Source: an uncultured Bacilli bacterium
Lineage (GTDB): Bacteria; Bacillota_I; Bacilli_A; RF39; UBA660
NCBI GenBank assembly: GCA_944332295.1
Contig: CALVJR010000002.1
Location: forward strand, 72,589-136,588
Direction: 5' to 3'
Length of the DNA: 64,000 nucleotides
The notes under the pieces are model-generated. The model was not told the origin of the DNA, did no database searches, and saw only the letters and a program-made list of their open reading frames with translations. Made by a program: the position numbers and the translations under genes. Of the stretch, positions 14,795 through 26,977 are shown one piece after another. Numbering within the stretch: position 1 is the stretch's first letter; every line of letters starts with the position of its first letter.

Positions 14795-14871
14795 GGGCGA
14801 TTAGCTCAGTTGGTTAGAGCACCTGCCTTACAAGCAGGGGGTCACAGGTTCGAGTCCTATATCGCCCACCA
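14795..14871 (+). tRNA. tRNA-Val (anticodon TAC)
   Basis: Cloverleaf, CTTACAA anticodon loop, encoded CCA. Confidence 0.9.
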
Positions 14872-14872
14872 T

Positions 14873-14948
<76 letters not shown>

Positions 14949-14956
14949 TTTTTTTT

Positions 14957-15040
14957 GGAGAGGTAGCGAAGAGGCTAAACGCGACAGACTGTAAATCTGT
15001 TCCTTCGGGTTCAATGGTTCGAATCCATTCCTCTCCACCA
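14957..15040 (+). tRNA. tRNA-Tyr (anticodon GTA), long variable arm
   Basis: CTGTAAA loop, class II variable arm, CCA. Confidence 0.9.
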
Positions 15041-15046
15041 CTGTAT

Positions 15047-15121
15047 TGCCTCGTAGCCAAGTGGTAAGGCATCAGACTTTGACTCTGACATGCGTTAGTT
15101 CGAATCTAACCGAGGCAGCCA
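15047..15121 (+). tRNA. tRNA-Gln (anticodon TTG)
   Basis: U1-A72, CTTTGAC loop, CCA. Confidence 0.85.
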
Positions 15122-15130
15122 TTATTATTT

Positions 15131-15206
15131 GATCTGTTAGCTCAGTCGGTAGAGCATTTGACTTTTAATCAAAGGGTCATGAGTTCGAATCTCATACAGA
15201 TCACCA
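15131..15206 (+). tRNA. tRNA-Lys (anticodon TTT)
   Basis: CTTTTAA loop, CCA. Confidence 0.9.
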
Positions 15207-15209
15207 GTT

Positions 15210-15298
15210 GCCTGAGTGGCGGAATTGGTAGACGCACAGGACTTAAAATCCTGCGAGATTCAACCCTCGTGCCGGTTCAAGTCCGGCCTTAGGCACCA
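15210..15298 (+). tRNA. tRNA-Leu (anticodon TAA), long variable arm
   Basis: CTTAAAA loop, long extra arm, CCA; only a 3-nt spacer after tRNA-Lys. Confidence 0.85.
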
Positions 15299-15308
15299 TT
15301 TTAATAAT

Positions 15309-15337
15309 TACTCATTAGTTACTGATGAGTTTTTTTA
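15309..15337 (+). terminator. rho-independent terminator ending tRNA operon 1
   Basis: Hairpin CTCAT...ATGAG followed by T7. Confidence 0.6.
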
Positions 15338-15366
15338 TAAACTATGCTCTAGATTTTTAAAAAGTG

Positions 15367-15395
15367 TTGACATAGTTAAAATGTTTTGTTATAAT
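15367..15395 (+). promoter_or_regulatory. sigmaA promoter for tRNA operon 2 (TTGACA, 17 bp, TATAAT)
   Basis: Perfect consensus hexamers about 28 bp upstream of tRNA-Ser. Confidence 0.65.
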
Positions 15396-15423
15396 CATTT
15401 TGTCGTCTGGAAAAGACGCATTC

Positions 15424-15516
15424 GGAGGAATACCCAAGTCTGGTTGAAGGGACCGGTCTTGAAAACCGGGAGGTCGTGCGAGCGGCGCAGGGGTTCGAAT
15501 CCCTTTTCCTCCGCCA
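15424..15516 (+). tRNA. tRNA-Ser (anticodon TGA)
   Basis: CTTGAAA loop, long variable arm, CCA. Confidence 0.9.
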
Positions 15517-15522
15517 TTATAT

Positions 15523-15599
<77 letters not shown>

Positions 15600-15603
15600 A
15601 TTT

Positions 15604-15680
15604 GGTCTCATGGTGCAGCTGGTTAACACGTCTGCCTGTCACGCAGAAGATCGCGGGTTCGAGTCCCGTTGAGACCGCCA
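15604..15680 (+). tRNA. tRNA-Asp (anticodon GTC)
   Basis: CTGTCAC loop, CCA. Confidence 0.9.
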
Positions 15681-15683
15681 TAT

Positions 15684-15759
15684 GGCTTCATAGCTCAGTC
15701 GGTAGAGCAAGGGACTGAAAATCCCTGTGTCGCTGGTTCGATTCCCGCTGGAGCCACCA
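15684..15759 (+). tRNA. tRNA-Phe (anticodon GAA)
   Basis: CTGAAAA loop, CCA. Confidence 0.9.
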
Positions 15760-15800
15760 TTTTGTTAATAACTTAGTTTTATATAAATTGGTTACGTACT

Positions 15801-15877
15801 GCGCTCGTAGCTCAGTTGGATAGAGTGTTTGGCTACGAACCAAAAGGTCAGGGGTTCGAATCCCTTCGAGCGCACCA
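15801..15877 (+). tRNA. tRNA-Arg (anticodon ACG)
   Basis: CTACGAA loop, CCA. Confidence 0.9.
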
Positions 15878-15882
15878 TATTT

Positions 15883-15959
15883 CGGGAAGTGGCTCAACTT
15901 GGTAGAGCACTTGGTTTGGGACCAAGGGGTTGCAGGTTCAAATCCTGTCTTCCCGACCA
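15883..15959 (+). tRNA. tRNA-Pro (anticodon TGG)
   Basis: TTTGGGA loop, CCA. Confidence 0.9.
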
Positions 15960-21202: not shown

Positions 21203-21231
21203 TTGAAAAAATAGTTAATATACGTTATAAT
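21203..21231 (+). promoter_or_regulatory. sigmaA promoter (TTGAAA, 17 bp, TATAAT) for the T-box leader
   Basis: Hexamers read directly. Confidence 0.5.
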
Positions 21232-21237
21232 CATTCG

Positions 21238-21461
21238 TAGATGCGATGATACTGAGGAGTAAAAATAGAAAGTCTTTAGAGAGGTTATGGTTGGTGTAAA
21301 TAGCTGATGGACTATTTTGAAGGTAGCAGTGGAGCAGAATTTCTGAAATAGTAGTAAGAAATATCCGTTCATCACGTTACGATGTTGAGATAGGGTTTTT
21401 AATTCTATAAAATAAGGTGGTACCACGAGCTTTCGTCCTTTGGATGAGGCTCGTTTTTTTA
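21238..21461 (+). promoter_or_regulatory. T-box riboswitch leader
   Basis: K-turn-like GATGA...GAGTA near the 5' end. A GAAGGUAGC segment is the specifier-loop candidate. The conserved T-box sequence AATAAGGTGGTACCACG lies at 21411-21427, immediately followed by the terminator hairpin ACGAGC...GCTCGT and T7. Confidence 0.75.
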
Positions 21462-21476
21462 TTAAGAGGTGATGCT

Positions 21477-21923
21477 ATGAGAGGAAAAGTTGTTATTATA
21501 CCTGACGATAGACAAATTTTGGCTGATTCTTTTGGGCGAGATGTATTTTATGGTGAGGATCATATAGAGGTTTATCAGGAATTTTCTGATAAATATCAAC
21601 TTGGTTATTCTTTTTCTAAAGATGATTCTCAATATGCATCTTTAGAAATTGCACGTTTAGGTCATTTTTCTTATAAAACTGAAAATGATACGCGTATTAT
21701 TATTTTTTATTTACCTAAAGAAATAACTGATCAGCAATTGAATTTTTTTGAAGCACATCAATATGAATTTTCTTCTTGGAATATGGTCTTTGCTTATAGC
21801 TTTTCGGAAGATAATAAGGAACAGGAAGTTATATCTTTAAAAGGTTTATCTACAATTTTACAAACGATGCGAGTCAAAAACCAGTTGTTTCGTTCGAATC
21901 AAATAAATTTAAAAAGTAAATAG
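21477..21923 (+). CDS. hypothetical protein (148 aa), first gene downstream of the T-box
   Basis: The ORF starts after the T-box terminator with RBS AAGAGGTGA. I recognise no motifs. Confidence 0.45.
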   Translation: MRGKVVIIPDDRQILADSFGRDVFYGEDHIEVYQEFSDKYQLGYSFSKDDSQYASLEIARLGHFSYKTENDTRIIIFYLPKEITDQQLNFFEAHQYEFSSWNMVFAYSFSEDNKEQEVISLKGLSTILQTMRVKNQLFRSNQINLKSK

Positions 21924-21935
21924 AAGGGTGATGTT

Positions 21936-24347
21936 ATGTTAGATAAAAAATATAATGCGAAAGAAAAAGAAGAAAAATGGTTGAATTATTGGAATGATAA
22001 TAGAATATATCGATTTGTTCCAGATGGTAGAGAAGTATTTTCAATAGATACTCCGCCACCAACAGTAAATGGTAAAATTCATATTGGACATATTTTTTCT
22101 TATTCACAGACAGAAATGATTGCTAGATATAAAAGATTGAGAGGGTATAATATTTTTTATCCTTTTGGTTTTGATGATAATGGTTTACCAAGTGAAAGAC
22201 TTGTTGAAAAAGAGCAGGGTAAAAAAGCTCATGAAATCGGTAGAGAAGAATTTTCAAAATTGTGTTATAAAACTACAGATAGATATGAAGAAGAATTTCA
22301 AGAGTTGTTTAGTAAAATGGGAGTAAGTACTGATTGGGATATTCATTATAAGACAGTTAGTCCTTCAACTATTAAGATTAGTCAGTTATCTTTTTTAGAC
22401 TTAGTCGATAAGGGACATTGTTATCACAGAGAATCTCCTGCTTTATGGTGTAATGAATGTTTAACATCTATTGCTCAAGCCGAGTTAGAAACCAAGACTA
22501 TTAAAACGACATTTAATTATATTAATTTCAAAACAGTAGAAGATGGTGAAGAATTTACTATAGCAACAACTCGTCCGGAATTATTACCAGCTATTGTATG
22601 TGTATTTGTTAATCCTAATGACGATGAACATAATCATTTAATTGGTAAGACAGCACATATTCCCATTATAGATGTAGAAGTACCTATCATGGCTGATGAG
22701 AAGGTTGCTATAGATAAAGGTACGGGTGTAGTAATGTGTTGTACTTTTGGTGATCAGACAGATATTGAATGGTGGAAGAAATATAATTTACCGTTGAAAT
22801 ATATTTTTACTAATGATGGAAGAATTATAGATGATGTACCAAATTATGGCGGATTAAAAATTAAGGAAGCTAGAAAGAAAATTATTGAAGATTTACAAAA
22901 TGGTGGATTTATAGTAAAAATTGAAGAATTAGAGCATGAAGTTCAAACGCATGAAAGATGTGGTAAGGAAGTAGAGTATTCTGTTATGAGGCAATGGTTT
23001 ATAGATACTATGAATCATAAAGAAGATTTTTTGAAAATAGGAAATGAAATTCACTGGCATCCTAGTCATATGAAAAATAGATATAATGAATGGGTTGAAA
23101 ATATTATGTGGGACTGGTGTATATCAAGACAAAGATACTTTGGTGTTCCATTCCCAGTTTGGTATTGTAAAGATTGTGGAGAACCAATATTTGCTAGAAA
23201 AGAAGATTTGCCAGTTAATCCATTAGTGGATTTGCCAAAGGTAGATAAATGTCCTAAATGTGGCTGTACTGAATTTGTTTCTGAAACCGATGTCATGGAT
23301 ACCTGGGCAACATCTTCAGTAACACCATTAATTAATATGCATTATGGTGAAAAAGACAACTATGAAGATATTTTAAAACCTATGAGTTTAAGAACGAATG
23401 CTTCTGAAATTATTAGGACATGGGATTTTTATACAATCGTTAAGAGTTTTTATCATTTTGGCAGGAGACCATGGGATAATGTTATGATTTCTGGATTTGT
23501 TATGGCTGATAAGGGACAGAAAATAAGTAAGAGTAAAGGTAATAGTAAAGTAGAACCGTTATCTCTTATAAATCAATATTCTGCTGATGTGATACGTTAC
23601 TGGGCTGGTTCAGGACGGTTAGGTACAGATATTGTTTATAGTGAAGAAACATTACAAAGGGGACGTAAATTAGTAAATAAGATATGGAATGTATCTAAAT
23701 TTATTGAAATGCATCTTCAAGATTATGAAGATAGAGAGTTTAGTAATTATGAATATATTGATAAATGGATTTTAGGAAAATTTCAAGAAATGGAAAAAGG
23801 ATTTTTAAAATATCTTGATGATTATGAAGTTGGTCTGGCCTTAAATCACTTAGAGAAATTTTTCTGGAATTTTTGTGATAATTACATTGAAATAGTAAAG
23901 CACAGGTTATATCGTCCTGAGGAATTTGGTGAAGAAGCTAGATATTCTGGGCAAAAGACAGTTTATACTTTACTTTATAAGTTGTTGCAAGATTTTAGTA
24001 TATATTTTCCATTCATTACCGAAGAAATTTATCAAGAGTTGTATCGTGAAAAGCAATCTATTCATTTGACAGAAATTAAAGAGTTAAATAATAACTTTGA
24101 TAAAGAAATGAAACTTGGAGATCAAATTGTTGAAATTATTGGTCTCGCTAGAGGAGAAAAAACAAATCATAATGTGTCTTTGAAAACACCAATTAGCTTA
24201 TTAGAATTAGAAGTTACGAAAGAATTAAAGAATGCGATTGAATGTTCAATGCAAGATTTTAAAGCTACTTTATTTATTGAAAACATTCATATGAGTCTTA
24301 TAGATTGCAATTATCATGTTAAAAATATTGAGTTAGAATTAGAATAG
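21936..24347 (+). CDS. valyl-tRNA synthetase paralogue, divergent type (803 aa, lacks the C-terminal coiled coil)
   Basis: PPPTVNGKIHIGH (HIGH), KISKS (KMSKS), the editing-domain TTRPE block and WCISRQRYFGVPFPVWYC are ValRS-family signatures. It differs from the canonical bacterial motifs of the downstream copy. Confidence 0.65.
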   Translation: MLDKKYNAKEKEEKWLNYWNDNRIYRFVPDGREVFSIDTPPPTVNGKIHIGHIFSYSQTEMIARYKRLRGYNIFYPFGFDDNGLPSERLVEKEQGKKAHEIGREEFSKLCYKTTDRYEEEFQELFSKMGVSTDWDIHYKTVSPSTIKISQLSFLDLVDKGHCYHRESPALWCNECLTSIAQAELETKTIKTTFNYINFKTVEDGEEFTIATTRPELLPAIVCVFVNPNDDEHNHLIGKTAHIPIIDVEVPIMADEKVAIDKGTGVVMCCTFGDQTDIEWWKKYNLPLKYIFTNDGRIIDDVPNYGGLKIKEARKKIIEDLQNGGFIVKIEELEHEVQTHERCGKEVEYSVMRQWFIDTMNHKEDFLKIGNEIHWHPSHMKNRYNEWVENIMWDWCISRQRYFGVPFPVWYCKDCGEPIFARKEDLPVNPLVDLPKVDKCPKCGCTEFVSETDVMDTWATSSVTPLINMHYGEKDNYEDILKPMSLRTNASEIIRTWDFYTIVKSFYHFGRRPWDNVMISGFVMADKGQKISKSKGNSKVEPLSLINQYSADVIRYWAGSGRLGTDIVYSEETLQRGRKLVNKIWNVSKFIEMHLQDYEDREFSNYEYIDKWILGKFQEMEKGFLKYLDDYEVGLALNHLEKFFWNFCDNYIEIVKHRLYRPEEFGEEARYSGQKTVYTLLYKLLQDFSIYFPFITEEIYQELYREKQSIHLTEIKELNNNFDKEMKLGDQIVEIIGLARGEKTNHNVSLKTPISLLELEVTKELKNAIECSMQDFKATLFIENIHMSLIDCNYHVKNIELELE

Positions 24348-24364
24348 TGTAAGGAGGATGAGTT

Positions 24365-26908
24365 ATGTTAGATAAAAAATATAATCATGTAGAAGTTGAA
24401 AAAAATAAGTATGAAGAATGGAAGAGTAAAGGCTATTTTAAGTCTGATAGTAAGAGTGATAAAACACCTTATTGTATCGTAATACCTCCTCCAAATGTAA
24501 CTGGAAAGCTTCATTTAGGTCATGCCTGGGATACAACGCTTCAAGATATTTTGATTCGTTATAAGAGAATGCAAGGATATGACGCATTATGGCTTCCGGG
24601 TATGGATCATGCGGGTATTGCGACTCAAGCTAAAGTTGATAAACGTCTTCGGGATATAGGAATAAATCCTCGCGGGATCTCTCGTGATGAATGGCTTAAT
24701 CATGCTTGGAGTTGGAAAGATGAGTATGCAAATACTATTCACGAGCAATGGGCAAAGTTAGGACTAAGTCTTGATTATACGAAAGAAAGATTTACTTTGG
24801 ATCAAGGACTTAATGATGCAGTTAATTATGTGTTTGTTAAACTTTATGAAAAGGGTTTAATTTATCGAGGAGAAAGAATTATCAACTGGGATTCAGTTCA
24901 GATGACTGCTCTTTCTAATGAGGAAGTTATTTATAAAGAAGATAAGGGTGCTTTTTATCATATTAAGTATTTTATTACTGGAACAGATGATTATTTGGAT
25001 GTAGCGACGACTCGTCCTGAAACTCTATTTGGTGATACAGCAGTTGCAGTTAATCCAAAAGATGAACGTTATAAGCATTTGATTGGAAAAACGGTTATTT
25101 TACCAATTGTTAATAAGGAAATTCCTATTGTTGGTGATATGCATGCTGATCCAGAGTTTGGTACTGGTGTTGTTAAGATTACACCTGCTCATGATCCTAA
25201 CGATTATGAAGTAGGAATGCGTCATAATTTGCCTAGAGTTGTGGTTATGAATTTAGATGCTACCATGAACGAGAATGCTCCTGGATATGAAGGAATGACT
25301 CGTGAGGAGTGTCGTGAAAAATTATTAGAGGATTTGAAAGAGAAAGATTTATTAATTCGTGTTGAAGAAATGGTACATAACGTTGGTCATAGTGAGAGAA
25401 GCGATGCGGTAGTTGAGCCAACACTTTCTAAGCAATGGTTTGTTAAAATGCGTCCTCTTGCCGATCGAGTTTTAGAAAATCAAAAAAATAAAGATACAAA
25501 AGTTAATTTTGTACCTGAGCGATATGAGAAGACAATGAACCATTGGATGGAAATTACCTATGACTGGTGTATTTCTAGACAATTATGGTGGGGACATAGG
25601 ATTCCTGCTTGGTATCGTGGAGATGAAGTTTATGTTGGAGTTGTTGCTCCAGAAGGAGATGGCTGGGTACAAGATGAAGATGTTTTGGATACTTGGTTTT
25701 CATCAGCTTTATGGCCATTTTCTACCTTGGGCTGGCCAGAAGAGACTGAATTATTTAAAAGATATTATCCCAATAACGTATTAGTTACTGGTTATGATAT
25801 TATTCCATTCTGGGTAAATCGTATGACTTTCCAAGGGTTAGAATTTACTGATAAACGTCCGTTTAAAGATTGTCTTATTCATGGACTTATTCGTGATAAA
25901 GAAGGGCGTAAGATGAGTAAGTCTTTAGGTAATGGTGTTGATCCTATGGATGTTATTGACGAGTATGGTGCGGATAGCTTACGTTTCTTTTTAACAACCA
26001 ATACAGCCCCTGGTACTGATTTACGTTATGATGAGGAAAAAGTTAAATCTACTTGGAATTTTATTAATAAATTATGGAATGCATCTCGTTATGTTTTAAT
26101 GAATATTGAAGATTTAACGAAAGAAAAAATTACATTTAATCATTTAAGTAAAGCAGATAAGTGGATTTTGACAGCTAAAAATTATTTAATCCAAGAAGTT
26201 ACTAAAAATATGGATAGTTATGATTTTCATAATGTAGGTAATACTTTGTATCAATTCATTTGGGAAGATTTTTGTGATAATTATATAGAACTTAGTAAAG
26301 CATTGATGAATGATACTACTAAGAGTGTTTTATTAGATGTTCTTACAACAATTTTGAAGTTACTTCATCCATTTATGCCTTATGTAACGGAAGAAATTTA
26401 TTCTATGTTACCAGTGAAAGATACTGAGTCTATCATGATTAGTTCTTATCCTATATATAATGAAAAAGAAGTTTATGCAGAGGATTATGAAAATGTAAAA
26501 AAAGTGATTACTGATTTAACAGAGATTCGTAATTTAAAAGTTACAAATGGTGTTAAGAAGGATGCTAAAGTTCAGTTAGAAACTGATAAAGATTTGGAAT
26601 ATATTTATCGTTCTCAACTAAAAATTGCAGATGATAATTTCATCACTAATAACGATGATATTACTAATTATCAAACGATTTCTTACCAATCTTCTTTGGT
26701 TCAGATTACTTATTATTTTGAAAATGAGGTTAATAAAGAACAATTACAAGAAGAAATTAAGAAACTAAAAACTTCTATCGAAAGACGGGAAAAACTTCTT
26801 TCTAATGAAAATTATGTAAATAAAGCACCAAAGAATATTGTAGATATGGATCGTGAAAAGTTAAAAGAAGAACAAGAAAAACTATTATCTTTACAAGCAC
26901 AATTATAG
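24365..26908 (+). CDS. valS: valyl-tRNA synthetase, canonical bacterial type (847 aa, C-terminal coiled coil)
   Basis: [48 protein letters not shown] and KMSKS, plus the C-terminal coiled coil. Confidence 0.85.
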
Positions 26909-26913
26909 TCGAT

Positions 26914-26945
26914 AAGCAATAGAATTTCTATTGCTTTTTTTGTGG
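26914..26945 (+). terminator. rho-independent terminator after valS
   Basis: AAGCAATAGAA...CTATTGCTT hairpin plus T7. Confidence 0.7.
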
Positions 26946-26977
26946 TTGTTTAGTATTCTTATGATAGGAGTGGTTGT

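What the first reader, a model, noticed from the sequence alone, without database searches (positions are those of the whole stretch)
21203..26908. One T-box leader controlling an unknown 148-aa gene and two tandem, non-identical valyl-tRNA synthetases
A canonical T-box element (AATAAGGTGGTACCACG plus terminator, 21411-21461) precedes a 148-aa ORF of unknown function. An 803-aa ValRS-like enzyme follows (PPPTVNGKIHIGH, KISKS, TTRPE editing block, no C-terminal coiled coil). Then, 18 bp later, comes a canonical 847-aa bacterial ValRS. Tandem retention of two ValRS types is unusual. The divergent copy could provide resistance to a natural-product inhibitor, a stress- or sporulation-specific isoform, or misacylation control. 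The specifier region contains GAAGGUAGC; the register GUA (Val, matching the tRNA-Val UAC found at 14795) versus GGU cannot be fixed by eye.
Basis: partly seen in the sequence, partly recalled or inferred. Interest (0 to 1): 0.6.

Follow-up and report, generated by a model that had tools for sequence, protein, structure and literature searches.

The report
Mobile second valine-tRNA synthetase gene
A gut bacterium keeps two different, apparently working copies of the enzyme that loads valine onto tRNA in one valine-sensing operon. In its relatives the extra copy is a travelling gene, often carried by a mobile element that cuts into the resident copy and over time replaces it.

Summary
One promoter and one T-box leader (Rfam 124.8 bits) precede orf148, an 803-aa ValRS (V2) and an 847-aa bacterial ValRS (V1). 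The only terminators are the T-box terminator and one after V1. The specifier is GUA (Val), not GGU: in 38 homologous leaders GUA is invariant while the preceding base varies.

The tandem is not a simple duplication. V1 sits in the ancestral valS position. Close relatives carry T-box–orf148–V1 or T-box–V1 without V2, and one species has both alleles around an identical V1 protein. V2 is therefore an inserted, strain-variable gene.

In other relatives V2 lies at the left end of an insertion that splits V1 inside its editing-motif codons (GVVKITP). A large serine recombinase with relaxase and ArdC genes abuts the right-hand V1 fragment at the same dinucleotide. Identical element ends occur in hosts whose V1 is diverged. 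Across the wider clade V2 usually stands alone, sometimes beside V1 remnants broken at that site.

The window has both genes intact and under purifying selection (ω about 0.05–0.08). Its V1 carries an unoccupied attB at 25166–25185. Why both copies are kept is untested.

The parts
14795..14871 (+). tRNA-Val (anticodon UAC, discriminator A73), the presumed effector of the T-box
   Evidence: ARAGORN and Rfam tRNA at 71.1 bits. The anticodon UAC pairs with the GUA specifier. A73 pairs with the U of the T-box UGGU bulge (read from the sequence).
21203..21231 (+). Sigma-70-type promoter-like site, TTGAAA-17-TATAAT
   Evidence: Best consensus match in the region (11 of 12), ending 6 nt before the T-box leader. 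This is a consensus match only; no transcription data exist.
21237..21443 (+). T-box leader. Specifier loop 3' side is GAA-G-GUA-G at 21319-21326, with the GUA specifier at 21323-21325. T-box motif at 21411-21427.
   Evidence: Rfam RF00230, 124.8 bits. GUA is invariant and the preceding base is G or U in 38 homologous leaders. The closing stem covaries.
21425..21460 (+). T-box intrinsic terminator (hairpin 21425-21454 plus U-run)
   Evidence: Fold at -17 kcal/mol; terminator scan.
21477..21923 (+). orf148, a conserved small protein of unknown function and a native partner of valS in this genus
   Evidence: Homologues lie between the T-box and valS in L001, L002, L028, L047, L071 and L112-114. 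No Pfam, NCBIfam or PDB relative. AF2 pLDDT 90.4 with no Foldseek hit in PDB. ω about 0.3.
21936..24347 (+). valS2 (V2): 803-aa ValRS of the NF009687/PRK13208 type, without the coiled-coil arm; the inserted, mobile copy
   Evidence: NCBIfam 999 bits. Best PDB match is T. thermophilus ValRS 1GAX at 329 bits, against IleRS at 248 bits. Absent from empty-site alleles L089-91, L111 and L112-114. ω=0.066-0.077.
24365..26908 (+). valS1 (V1): 847-aa canonical bacterial ValRS in the ancestral valS slot
   Evidence: NCBIfam NF004349 at 1106 bits and PF10458 arm. Synteny with radC-mreC-mreD downstream. ω=0.054-0.076.
25166..25185 (+). Unoccupied attB core GGTGTTGTT-AA-GATTACACC inside valS1 (codons G268-P274 of the editing motif [12 protein letters not shown]; central AA at 25175-25176)
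   Evidence: Single exact match in the window. In relatives V1 is broken at exactly this dinucleotide by the V2- or LSR-bearing element.
26914..26946 (+). Intrinsic terminator ending the operon
   Evidence: 10-bp stem followed by a T-run, 6 nt after the V1 stop. No other terminator-like site lies between the T-box and this point.

Best explanation
The window holds one valine-responsive operon: promoter, T-box leader with GUA specifier, orf148, valS2, valS1, terminator.

When uncharged tRNA-Val(UAC) accumulates, it should pair with the GUA specifier and the UGGU bulge. That would stabilise the antiterminator and allow read-through into all three genes. This step is inferred from the family's known mechanism.

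Both genes encode complete ValRS enzymes with synthetic and editing motifs. Both are kept by purifying selection.

The arrangement arose when valS2 was inserted between orf148 and the resident valS1 of an ancestral T-box-orf148-valS1 operon. valS2 is a ValRS of the ~800-aa type that lacks the coiled-coil arm, and it moves horizontally within this clade of uncultured gut Bacilli.

In relatives the same valS2 lineage sits at the attL end of an integrative element. The element carries a large serine recombinase, a relaxase and ArdC. It recombines at an AA dinucleotide inside the valS1 codons for GVVKITP. This splits valS1 and places valS2 directly behind the truncated valS1 reading frame, under the host T-box.

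Decay of the element and of the valS1 pieces then leaves valS2 alone in the old valS slot, which is the commonest state in the wider clade.

The window is the allele in which both genes are intact, and its valS1 still carries the unoccupied attB.
For: T-box and specifier:
-.
- tRNA-Val(UAC).

Single operon:
- One strong promoter-like site.
- Terminators only at the T-box and after V1.

Enzyme identity and motifs:
-.

Selection:
- Among the tandem genomes WIN, L001 and L088, V2 has ω=0.066-0.077 (dS 0.56-0.71).
- V1 has ω=0.054-0.076 (dS 0.50-0.65).
- Both are constrained and have diverged in step.

Ancestral slot and empty sites:
- L112-114 are cyclophilin-T-box-orf147-V1.
- L111 plus 22 similar contigs are T-box-V1.
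- The identical V1 protein P0153 occurs with V2 (L088) and without it (L089-91), with flanks identical up to about 40 nt past the terminator.

Mobility of V2:
- L002, L003 and L004 come from three named or unnamed taxa.
- They are 99-100% identical from the junction through V2 and at least 5 kb beyond.
- Their V1 N-fragments are 72-81% identical and their upstream DNA is unrelated.
- L074 and L015 show the same pattern: V2 100.0% and V1N 86%.

Recombinase end:
- An LSR that is 99.6-100% identical abuts V1 from aa 268 in four hosts whose V1C is 94, 91, 74 and 67% identical to the window.
- LSR homologues at 58-64% identity do the same in four more loci.

att sites:
- attL, attR and attB share the central AA.
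- The reconstructed attP has 22-nt inverted arms.

Physical link:
- L100 carries a V2-type gene and an LSR of this family within 11.7 kb.

Decay series:
- L021, L061, L107, L110, L006, L025, L037, L081-84 and L007.
Against: - No single contig was obtained that holds both the 99-100% conserved V2 end (L002-4) and the 100% conserved LSR end (L085/87/92-94). Their union into one element rests on matching att half-sites and on L100, a more distant family member.
- The window's own arrangement, V2 upstream of an intact V1, cannot be produced by LSR integration at the attB. How V2 got between orf148 and V1 is unresolved. The only clues are direct repeats of 34-47 nt flanking V2 in L028 and L073, which suggest recombination through the shared 5' ends.
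- A third arrangement exists, with V1 before V2 (L109).
- If V2 were merely replacing V1, strong constraint on both over dS of about 0.5-0.7 is not expected. Some benefit of keeping both is implied and is not identified.
- No enzymology, transcription data or excision data exist. All genomes are MAGs or metagenome contigs.
Confidence: 0.72

Rival explanations
1. V2 is kept because it is insensitive to a natural ValRS inhibitor, as a resistance or self-resistance isoform. V1 would remain the more efficient housekeeping enzyme. The pattern would resemble IleRS1/IleRS2 in Bacilli or plasmid-borne mupA.
For: - V2 is carried on a mobile element with relaxase and ArdC and is strain-variable, as resistance genes typically are.
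- Both copies are under purifying selection where they coexist.
- Inserts that carry V2 sometimes also carry peptide- or metabolite-modifying enzymes: a nitroreductase-YcaO fusion and radical-SAM genes.
- Plasmid-borne extra valS genes exist in Streptomyces and Burkholderia.
- The IleRS precedent is in bioRxiv 10.1101/2022.02.09.479832 and PMC10485003.
Against: - I know of no natural ValRS inhibitor in gut communities, and none was found in the searches.
- V2 is co-transcribed with V1 from the same T-box rather than separately induced.
- Most of the clade lives on V2 alone, so V2 is a competent housekeeping enzyme.
- The biosynthetic-looking cargo is sporadic and is absent from the window.
Confidence: 0.2
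2. The two enzymes have divided the work. They might differ in editing stringency, kinetics, temperature or stress optimum, or in a non-canonical role of one copy. The tandem would then be a stable adaptive state rather than a step towards replacement.
For: - ω of about 0.05-0.08 for both genes over dS of about 0.5-0.7 in three tandem genomes.
- The tandem recurs in several lineages: window/L115, L001, L088, L116, L028 and L073.
- Precedents exist of coexisting, differently built aaRS pairs: ProRS1/2 in B. thuringiensis (PMC11229370) and duplicated ThrRS (PMC4787780).
Against: - Only one tRNA-Val gene is visible in the window, and one specifier serves both genes.
- Both proteins retain the full synthetic and editing motifs.
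- Sister strains and species manage with V1 alone or with V2 alone.
Confidence: 0.2
3. The tandem is a neutral, short-lived redundancy immediately after acquisition. One copy is already dispensable and on its way to loss.
For: - Presence or absence of V2 around an identical V1 protein within one species.
- Widespread V1 remnants next to V2.
Against: Both genes are intact and strongly constrained across WIN, L001 and L088, which differ by dS of about 0.5-0.7. That is far longer than a neutral gene would stay intact.
Confidence: 0.1
4. The split valS1 seen in relatives is a functional two-piece enzyme, or a developmentally rejoined gene like sigK with the skin element. It would not be a disrupted gene, and V2 would be incidental cargo.
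For: - V1N is an intact 306-aa ORF in L002 and V1C ORFs are intact in L085, L087 and L093.
- Large serine recombinases do rejoin split genes in sporulating Firmicutes (established knowledge).
- Class I synthetases tolerate splits in CP1 (established knowledge).
Against: - V1N carries internal deletions in L021 and L037 and is reduced to 54-121 aa in L081-84 and L110.
- V1C is truncated or missing in L061, L007, L006 and L025.
- The intact fragments are explained by very recent integration, since the element is 99-100% identical between hosts.
- The break removes the conserved editing-site His-Asp from the N piece.
Confidence: 0.07

Closest known systems
T-box leaders of Firmicute aminoacyl-tRNA synthetase genes (Rfam RF00230; for example Bacillus subtilis valS and tyrS)
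   Same: Full-length match to the family model. It has a Stem I specifier loop with the codon followed by a purine, a UGGN bulge, and competing terminator and antiterminator. It lies upstream of valS in the classical valS...radC-mreCD neighbourhood.
   Different: It controls three genes, including two ValRS of different types and a small unknown protein. The purine after the codon is G rather than the usual A.
IleRS1/IleRS2 pairs in Bacillus/Priestia and plasmid-borne mupA/mupB (bioRxiv 10.1101/2022.02.09.479832; PMC10485003; NCBIfam NF000257/NF000258)
   Same: Two structurally distinct class Ia synthetases for one amino acid coexist in a Bacillota genome. The second type is horizontally mobile.
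   Different: For IleRS the selective agent (mupirocin) is known, and the genes are at separate loci with separate regulation. Here no inhibitor is known, the genes are adjacent in one operon, and the mobile copy's vehicle inserts into the resident gene.
Xenologous gene displacement and gene displacement in situ (concept reviewed in PMC2588523; term also used in PMC1274311)
   Same: A foreign functional equivalent takes over the exact operon position and regulation of the resident gene. An intermediate with both genes side by side is the state predicted by that model.
   Different: Here a concrete vehicle and the recombination sites are visible. All stages are found among close relatives: resident only, both, resident split, remnants, and invader only.
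Large-serine-recombinase elements that insert into genes (Tn5397/TndX, phage A118 in comK, the skin element in sigK; from established knowledge). A weak DNA match to tndX was found.
   Same: The recombinase has Resolvase, Recombinase and Zn-ribbon domains. There is a short attB inside a coding sequence, a central dinucleotide crossover and an attP with inverted arms. Relaxase and ArdC indicate transfer by conjugation.
   Different: The target is an essential translation gene. The element carries a complete replacement enzyme of a different subfamily at the opposite end, oriented to be read from the host's own leader.
Coexisting P-type and E-type ProRS in Bacillus thuringiensis (PMC11229370)
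   Same: Both architectural types of one synthetase are present and expressed in one Bacillota genome.
   Different: The ProRS genes are not in tandem and are not tied to a mobile element that targets the partner gene.

Membership tests
T-box riboswitch (RF00230) | Covariance-model score above the curated gathering threshold over the full model | tested here: met
   124.8 bits against 93, model positions 1-219 of 219.
T-box riboswitch (RF00230) | Specifier codon in the Stem I loop matching the amino acid of the regulated gene, followed by a purine | tested here: met
   GAA-N-GUA-G. GUA is invariant in 38 leaders. N is G in 35 and U in L044, L077 and L112. The closing stem covaries.
T-box riboswitch (RF00230) | UGGN bulge complementary to the tRNA 3' end, and mutually exclusive terminator and antiterminator | tested here: met
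   GGUGGUACC is present, with UGGU facing A73 of tRNA-Val. The terminator hairpin folds at -17 kcal/mol and has a U-run. Actual tRNA-dependent antitermination cannot be tested with these tools.
Valine--tRNA ligase (both genes) | Score above the NCBIfam equivalog cut-off for ValRS and higher than for IleRS, LeuRS or MetRS | tested here: met
   V2: NF009687 at 999 bits (cut-off 738), against ileS at 404. V1: NF004349 at 1106 bits (cut-off 704), against ileS at 403.
Valine--tRNA ligase (both genes) | HIGH and KMSKS signatures and a CP1 editing domain with the Thr-rich peptide and conserved Asp | tested here: met
   V2: HIGH, KISKS, TTRPE and GTGVVMCCTFGDQTD aligned to the 1GAX editing site. V1: HLGH, KMSKS, TTRPE and [12 protein letters not shown].
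Valine--tRNA ligase (both genes) | Charges tRNA-Val and clears Thr-tRNA-Val | not testable with these tools
   Indirect evidence only: ω of 0.05-0.08 for both genes.
Archaeal-type ValRS (the label often given to the PRK13208 group) | Groups with archaeal ValRS in a phylogeny | not tested
   Only family-model membership and the lack of the PF10458 arm were established. No archaeal sequences were available for a tree. The 'archaeal' label is recollection.
Integrative conjugative or mobilisable element with a large serine recombinase (related loci, not the window) | Recombinase with Resolvase, Recombinase and Zn_ribbon_recom domains at one end | tested here: met
   L085, L087 and L100.
Integrative conjugative or mobilisable element with a large serine recombinase (related loci, not the window) | Same element in different hosts at the same site, with attL and attR sharing a central dinucleotide and attP having inverted arms | tested here: met
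   The identical LSR end occurs in 4 hosts. Identical V2 ends occur in 3 hosts (L002-4) and 2 hosts (L074/L015). attB is GGTGTTGTT-AA-GATTACACC. attP arms are GGATTATGTACCATTGGGTGTAG and CTACACCCGATGGTACAAATCC.
Integrative conjugative or mobilisable element with a large serine recombinase (related loci, not the window) | Transfer functions (relaxase; a mating-pore apparatus for a full ICE) | tested here: inconclusive
   Relaxase PF03432, a NikA-like gene, ArdC and sortase were seen. No type IV secretion genes lie within the 10 kb available. The element could be an ICE or an IME.
Integrative conjugative or mobilisable element with a large serine recombinase (related loci, not the window) | V2 end and recombinase end are the two ends of one element; excision to a circle | tested here: inconclusive
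   This is supported by complementary att half-sites and by L100 (V2-type gene plus LSR within 11.7 kb). No contig spans the whole of the highly conserved element, and no circular junction was recovered.
Resistance-conferring second synthetase (mupA/IleRS2-like) | A known inhibitor and demonstrated insensitivity of the second copy | not testable with these tools
   No inhibitor is known to me. Literature searches gave nothing for ValRS.

The most novel reading that the evidence does not exclude
valS2 is the payload of a family of serine-recombinase elements whose attachment site lies inside an essential gene, valS1. The element can afford to destroy that gene because it delivers a complete ValRS of another subfamily at its attL end. 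That enzyme is translationally coupled to the truncated valS1 frame and so falls under the host's own T-box. Once the valS1 halves decay, the host depends on the element's gene. This would be a mechanistic route for in situ replacement of an essential translation gene by a foreign equivalent. It would also work as a form of addiction for the element. The window is a host that already owns valS2 and still offers an intact attB at 25166-25185.
Probability: 0.5. Interest if true: 0.85.

Novelty: new variant of a known kind. Interest (0 to 1): 0.72.

Why it matters
Aminoacyl-tRNA synthetases are classic examples of essential genes that have been swapped between distant lineages. How a cell survives the swap has mostly been inferred from end states, as has the reason the newcomer so often sits exactly where the old gene was.

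This group of uncultured gut Bacilli shows every stage among close relatives:
- resident gene only;
- both genes in one T-box operon (the window);
- resident gene split by an element that brings the replacement;
- decaying fragments;
- replacement gene alone.

The recombination sites are defined to the dinucleotide. That makes the process testable through recombinase assays, excision PCR and complementation.

It also raises a practical question. A ValRS gene that spreads on mobile elements through chicken, rabbit and human gut bacteria is what a resistance determinant would look like, should a ValRS inhibitor exist or be developed.

Tried and rejected
- **GGU (Gly) register of the specifier:** rejected. 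The first G varies to U while GUA never changes.
- **V2 as IleRS, LeuRS or MetRS:** rejected.
- **Assembly chimera:** rejected, because independent contigs show the same arrangement.
- **Internal promoter or terminator separating the genes:** none stands out. Promoter-like hits are no more frequent than in shuffled sequence, and the only terminators are at the T-box and after V1.
- **Prophage origin of the element:** no V2 or LSR relatives in IMG/VR. The gene content (relaxase, ArdC, sortase) points to a conjugative or mobilisable element.
- **Plasmid relatives of the element:** only trivial matches, to cold-shock genes and weakly to tndX.
- **Functional two-piece ValRS1, or a skin-like developmental element:** judged unlikely (see rivals).
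- **A contig joining the conserved V2 end to the conserved LSR end:** not found. Five V2 look-ups (P0037, P0024, P0023, P0017 and the window's V1) returned decayed or different arrangements. There was no sequence overlap between L085 and the V2 loci.
- **Literature precedent:** searches for an element inserting in valS or carrying a ValRS found nothing.
- **Origin of the window's own arrangement (V2 before an intact V1):** not derivable from recombinase integration, and left unresolved.
Full report
**Observation**

- Rfam places a full-length T-box leader at 21237-21443 on the + strand (124.8 bits, gathering score 93).
- A near-consensus promoter-like site (TTGAAA-17-TATAAT, 21203-21231) ends 6 nt before the leader.
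- The leader's terminator hairpin (21425-21454, -17 kcal/mol, then a U-run) precedes three ORFs on the same strand:
  - orf148 at 21477-21923;
  - an 803-aa gene at 21936-24347;
  - an 847-aa gene at 24365-26908, after a 17-nt spacer.
- The only other terminator-like site lies 6 nt after the last stop codon, at 26914-26936.
- The simplest reading is therefore a single T-box-controlled transcript.

**Specifier**

The Rfam alignment puts an 8-nt 3' side of the specifier loop (GAAGGUAG) before the closing stem ACUG/CAGU.

I collected 36 homologous leaders from related loci with nhmmer and read the loop in each.
- The sequence is GAA-N-GUA-G throughout.
- N is G in 35 leaders including the window, and U in L044 and L077.
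- A further leader, L112, also has U.
- GUA never changes.
- The stem below covaries: ACUG/CAGU, CAAG/CUUG, GUCG/CGAU and AUUG/CAAU.

The register is therefore GUA (Val). It matches tRNA-Val(UAC) at 14795-14871, whose discriminator A can pair with the U of the UGGU bulge.

**The proteins**

- The 803-aa protein (V2) passes NCBI's equivalog model NF009687/PRK13208 for valine--tRNA ligase (999 bits, cut-off 738).
- The 847-aa protein (V1) passes NF004349/PRK05729 (1106 bits, cut-off 704).
- Each scores far lower on the IleRS, LeuRS and MetRS models.
- V1 has the C-terminal tRNA-binding arm (PF10458) and V2 does not.
- V2's best solved relative is T. thermophilus ValRS (1GAX, 329 bits; IleRS 248). 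The alignment retains HIGH, KISKS, the Thr-rich peptide and the editing-site Asp.
- orf148 has no Pfam, NCBIfam or PDB relative.
  - It folds confidently (pLDDT 90.4) into an α/β domain with no Foldseek neighbour in PDB.
  - Its family is small, about 110 clusters at 50% identity among 1.84 billion representatives.

**What relatives show about the tandem**

A scan of species-representative genomes with V2 found more than 580 loci. The best 80 are 81-91% identical and all come from uncultured gut Bacilli (Ca. Onthousia, Ca. Ventrenecus, CAG:822 and many unnamed MAGs).

Within ±5 kb of V2:
- 3 loci have an intact V1 directly downstream (L001, L028, L073);
- 13 have V1 fragments;
- 64 have no V1 (one search counted 63, because it included a spurious 22% match in L055 among the fragments).

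Gene order shows that V1 occupies the ancestral position.
- The window's flanks are a cyclophilin lipoprotein upstream, and a metallophosphoesterase, a 150-aa protein, RadC, MreC, MreD and an M23 peptidase downstream.
- The same flanks recur around V2-only loci (L054, L060, L035, L044).
- They also recur around L007, which keeps only a V1 C-terminal remnant.

Searching with V1 found many full-length V1 proteins at 83-97% identity, for example in Ca. Faecimonas. Their contexts are decisive.
- L112-114 are cyclophilin-T-box-orf147-V1 with no V2.
- The species holding P0141 is T-box-V1 on all 23 contigs read.
- The exact V1 protein P0153 occurs both with V2 (L088 and three similar contigs) and without it (L089-91). 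The flanks are identical up to about 40 nt past the T-box terminator.
- V2 is thus an insertion into a pre-existing T-box-(orf148)-V1 operon, and it is polymorphic within a species.
- The window's allele recurs in an independent sample (L115). Sister lineages with the tandem are L001 and L116.

**Selection**

- Among the tandem genomes WIN, L001 and L088, V2 has ω=0.066-0.077 (dS 0.56-0.71).
- V1 has ω=0.054-0.076 (dS 0.50-0.65).
- Both genes are therefore strongly constrained.
- Their synonymous divergences match, so the pair has been inherited together for a substantial time in this lineage.
- V2's base composition (GC 0.30, GC3 0.18) does not differ from its neighbours.

**The mobile element**

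In ten of the 80 loci, V1 residues 1-274 lie upstream of V2. This fragment always ends at the same residue.

*The V2 end*
- L002 (Ca. Onthousia faecipullorum), L003 (Ca. Ventrenecus avicola) and L004 (another chicken MAG) have unrelated upstream DNA.
- Their V1 N-fragments are only 72-81% identical.
- From one point onward they are 99-100% identical for at least 7.4 kb.
- The identical block covers a 100-nt tail, V2, an HTH_36 replication-like gene, an XRE repressor, a MazF-like toxin, CspA and others.
- The switch point lies inside the V1 codons for the editing motif GTGVVK|ITPAHD.
- The truncated V1 frame reads on for 32 codons and stops overlapping the V2 start (ATGTTAG). V2 is therefore positioned to be expressed from the host leader.
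- L074 and L015 (human gut) repeat the pattern: tail and V2 100.0% identical, V1N 86%.

*The recombinase end*
- Proteins consisting only of V1 residues ~268-847 exist.
- Their contigs (L085, L087) show, immediately upstream, a 550-aa large serine recombinase (LSR). It is preceded by sortase, relaxase, NikA-like and ArdC genes.
- Downstream is the same neighbourhood as in the window.
- A metagenome scan with the recombinase found the same protein (99.6-100% identity) abutting V1 from residue 268 in hosts whose V1C is 94, 91, 74 and 67% identical to the window.
- Homologues at 58-64% identity do the same in four further loci.

*The att sites*
- The element-side sequence is constant up to GGTGTAGGG-AA, and the host side varies directly after it.
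- attB is GGTGTTGTT-AA-GATTACACC.
- attL is host-AA-GACTACACCCGATGGTACAAATCC.
- attR is GGATTATGTACCATTGGGTGTAGGG-AA-host.
- The reconstructed attP has 22-nt inverted arms, as expected for this recombinase class.

*Physical link and decay series*
- L100 carries a V2-type gene (51% identity) and an LSR of the family within 11.7 kb.
- Decayed versions connect these states to V2-only loci:
  - V1N-V2-cargo-V1C without a recombinase (L021, L061, L107, L110);
  - short V1 remnants starting at residues 269-273 after V2 (L025, L006);
  - a 54-aa V1 remnant plus a truncated HTH_36 gene in a widespread human-gut species (L081-84).
- Of the 13 fragment-bearing loci, 12 are broken at residues 265-274.

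*In the window*
- The attB core occurs once, intact, at 25166-25185 inside V1.
- There is no attP arm in the window.

**What is shown and what is inferred**

Shown:
- the RNA element and its codon;
- the identity and integrity of both synthetases;
- the operon layout;
- the insertion polymorphism of V2;
- purifying selection on both genes;
- identical V2-bearing DNA in hosts with diverged V1;
- identical recombinase-bearing DNA at the same dinucleotide in other hosts;
- the series of V1 remnants.

Inferred:
- that the V2 end and the recombinase end are the two ends of one element (supported by complementary half-sites and by L100);
- that the element excises and transfers;
- that V2 is expressed through the truncated V1 frame;
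- that the T-box responds to tRNA-Val.

Unresolved:
- How V2 came to lie upstream of an intact V1 in the window. Recombinase integration cannot produce that order.
  - V1 and V2 share their first 21 nt in every locus.
  - L028 and L073 have 47- and ~34-nt direct repeats (ribosome-binding site plus seven codons) flanking V2.
  - These repeats hint at recombination through the shared 5' ends.
  - L109 shows yet another order, with V1 before V2.
- Why both genes are retained is also unresolved.

**Comparison with what is known**

- The RNA is an ordinary member of the T-box family.
- Coexisting, structurally different synthetases for one amino acid are known: IleRS1/IleRS2 in Bacilli, ProRS1/2 in B. 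thuringiensis and duplicated ThrRS.
- Duplicated synthetases are common overall (PMC4787780).
- Replacement of a gene by a foreign equivalent in the same operon position is an established concept.
- Serine-recombinase elements that insert into coding sequences are also familiar.
- I did not find in the literature:
  - an element whose attachment site is inside an essential synthetase gene and which carries a replacement synthetase arranged to capture the host's regulation;
  - two ValRS types in one T-box operon.
- I therefore rate the window's feature as a new variant of a known kind. The element in its relatives is the more surprising part.

Noticed in passing
window 21936-21956 and 24365-24385; all related loci: V2 and V1 begin with the same 21 nt (ATGTTAGATAAAAAATATAAT, MLDKKYN) in every locus, including element-borne V2. 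In L028 a 47-nt direct repeat flanks V2, and in L073 one of about 34 nt (ribosome-binding site plus first seven codons). The window's repeat is degenerate. This may be the recombination substrate for the V2-before-V1 arrangement and for deleting the V1 N-fragment.
   Followed up: partly
L021 8044-10188; L006 9432-11552: A 706-714-aa fusion of a nitroreductase-family domain and a YcaO cyclodehydratase lies between V2 and the V1 C-fragment. This is a peptide-modifying type of enzyme inside the valS1-splitting insert.
   Followed up: no
L107 12440-15380; L110 7967-10901; L100 5760-6944: Radical-SAM, amidohydrolase and methyltransferase genes are alternative cargo between V2 and the V1 C-fragment or the recombinase.
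   Followed up: no
22 of the 80 related loci, e.g. L007 4232-4999, L005 2905-3651: An HD-domain protein of about 250 aa sits between the valine T-box and V2. It would be a second kind of passenger gene under the valine leader, besides orf148.
   Followed up: no
L109 5816-10771: A third arrangement: a 143-aa ORF, then V1 as two ORFs (481 + 356 aa, from a frameshift or an error), then V2. Here V1 precedes V2.
   Followed up: no
L055 2188-7406: Two V2-type genes lie in one region (51% and 82% identical to the window's V2), with a T-box between them. The 51% type is also the one linked to a recombinase in L100.
   Followed up: partly
PLSDB records NZ_CP109170.1, NZ_CP047317.1, NZ_CP013105.1, NZ_LR594668.1: Annotated plasmid-borne valS genes in Streptomyces, Burkholderia glumae, Paraburkholderia and Variovorax are the best plasmid matches to V2 (34-36% identity). 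Extra ValRS genes on replicons exist outside this clade.
   Followed up: no
L002 8380-13323 (identical in L003 and L004): The conserved element carries an HTH_36 replication-like protein, a divergently oriented XRE repressor, a MazF/PemK-like toxin, a cold-shock protein and a sigma-like regulator.
   Followed up: partly
window 14795-15959: A cluster of 12 tRNA genes (Val, Thr, Tyr, Gln, Lys, Leu, Ser, Met, Asp, Phe, Arg, Pro) lies 5 kb upstream of the operon. It includes the only tRNA-Val seen in the window.
   Followed up: no
window 21477-21923: orf148 belongs to a small family of stand-alone proteins of about 145 aa. The predicted fold is confident but has no structural or sequence relative. 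Where examined, family members lie between a valine T-box and valS.
   Followed up: partly
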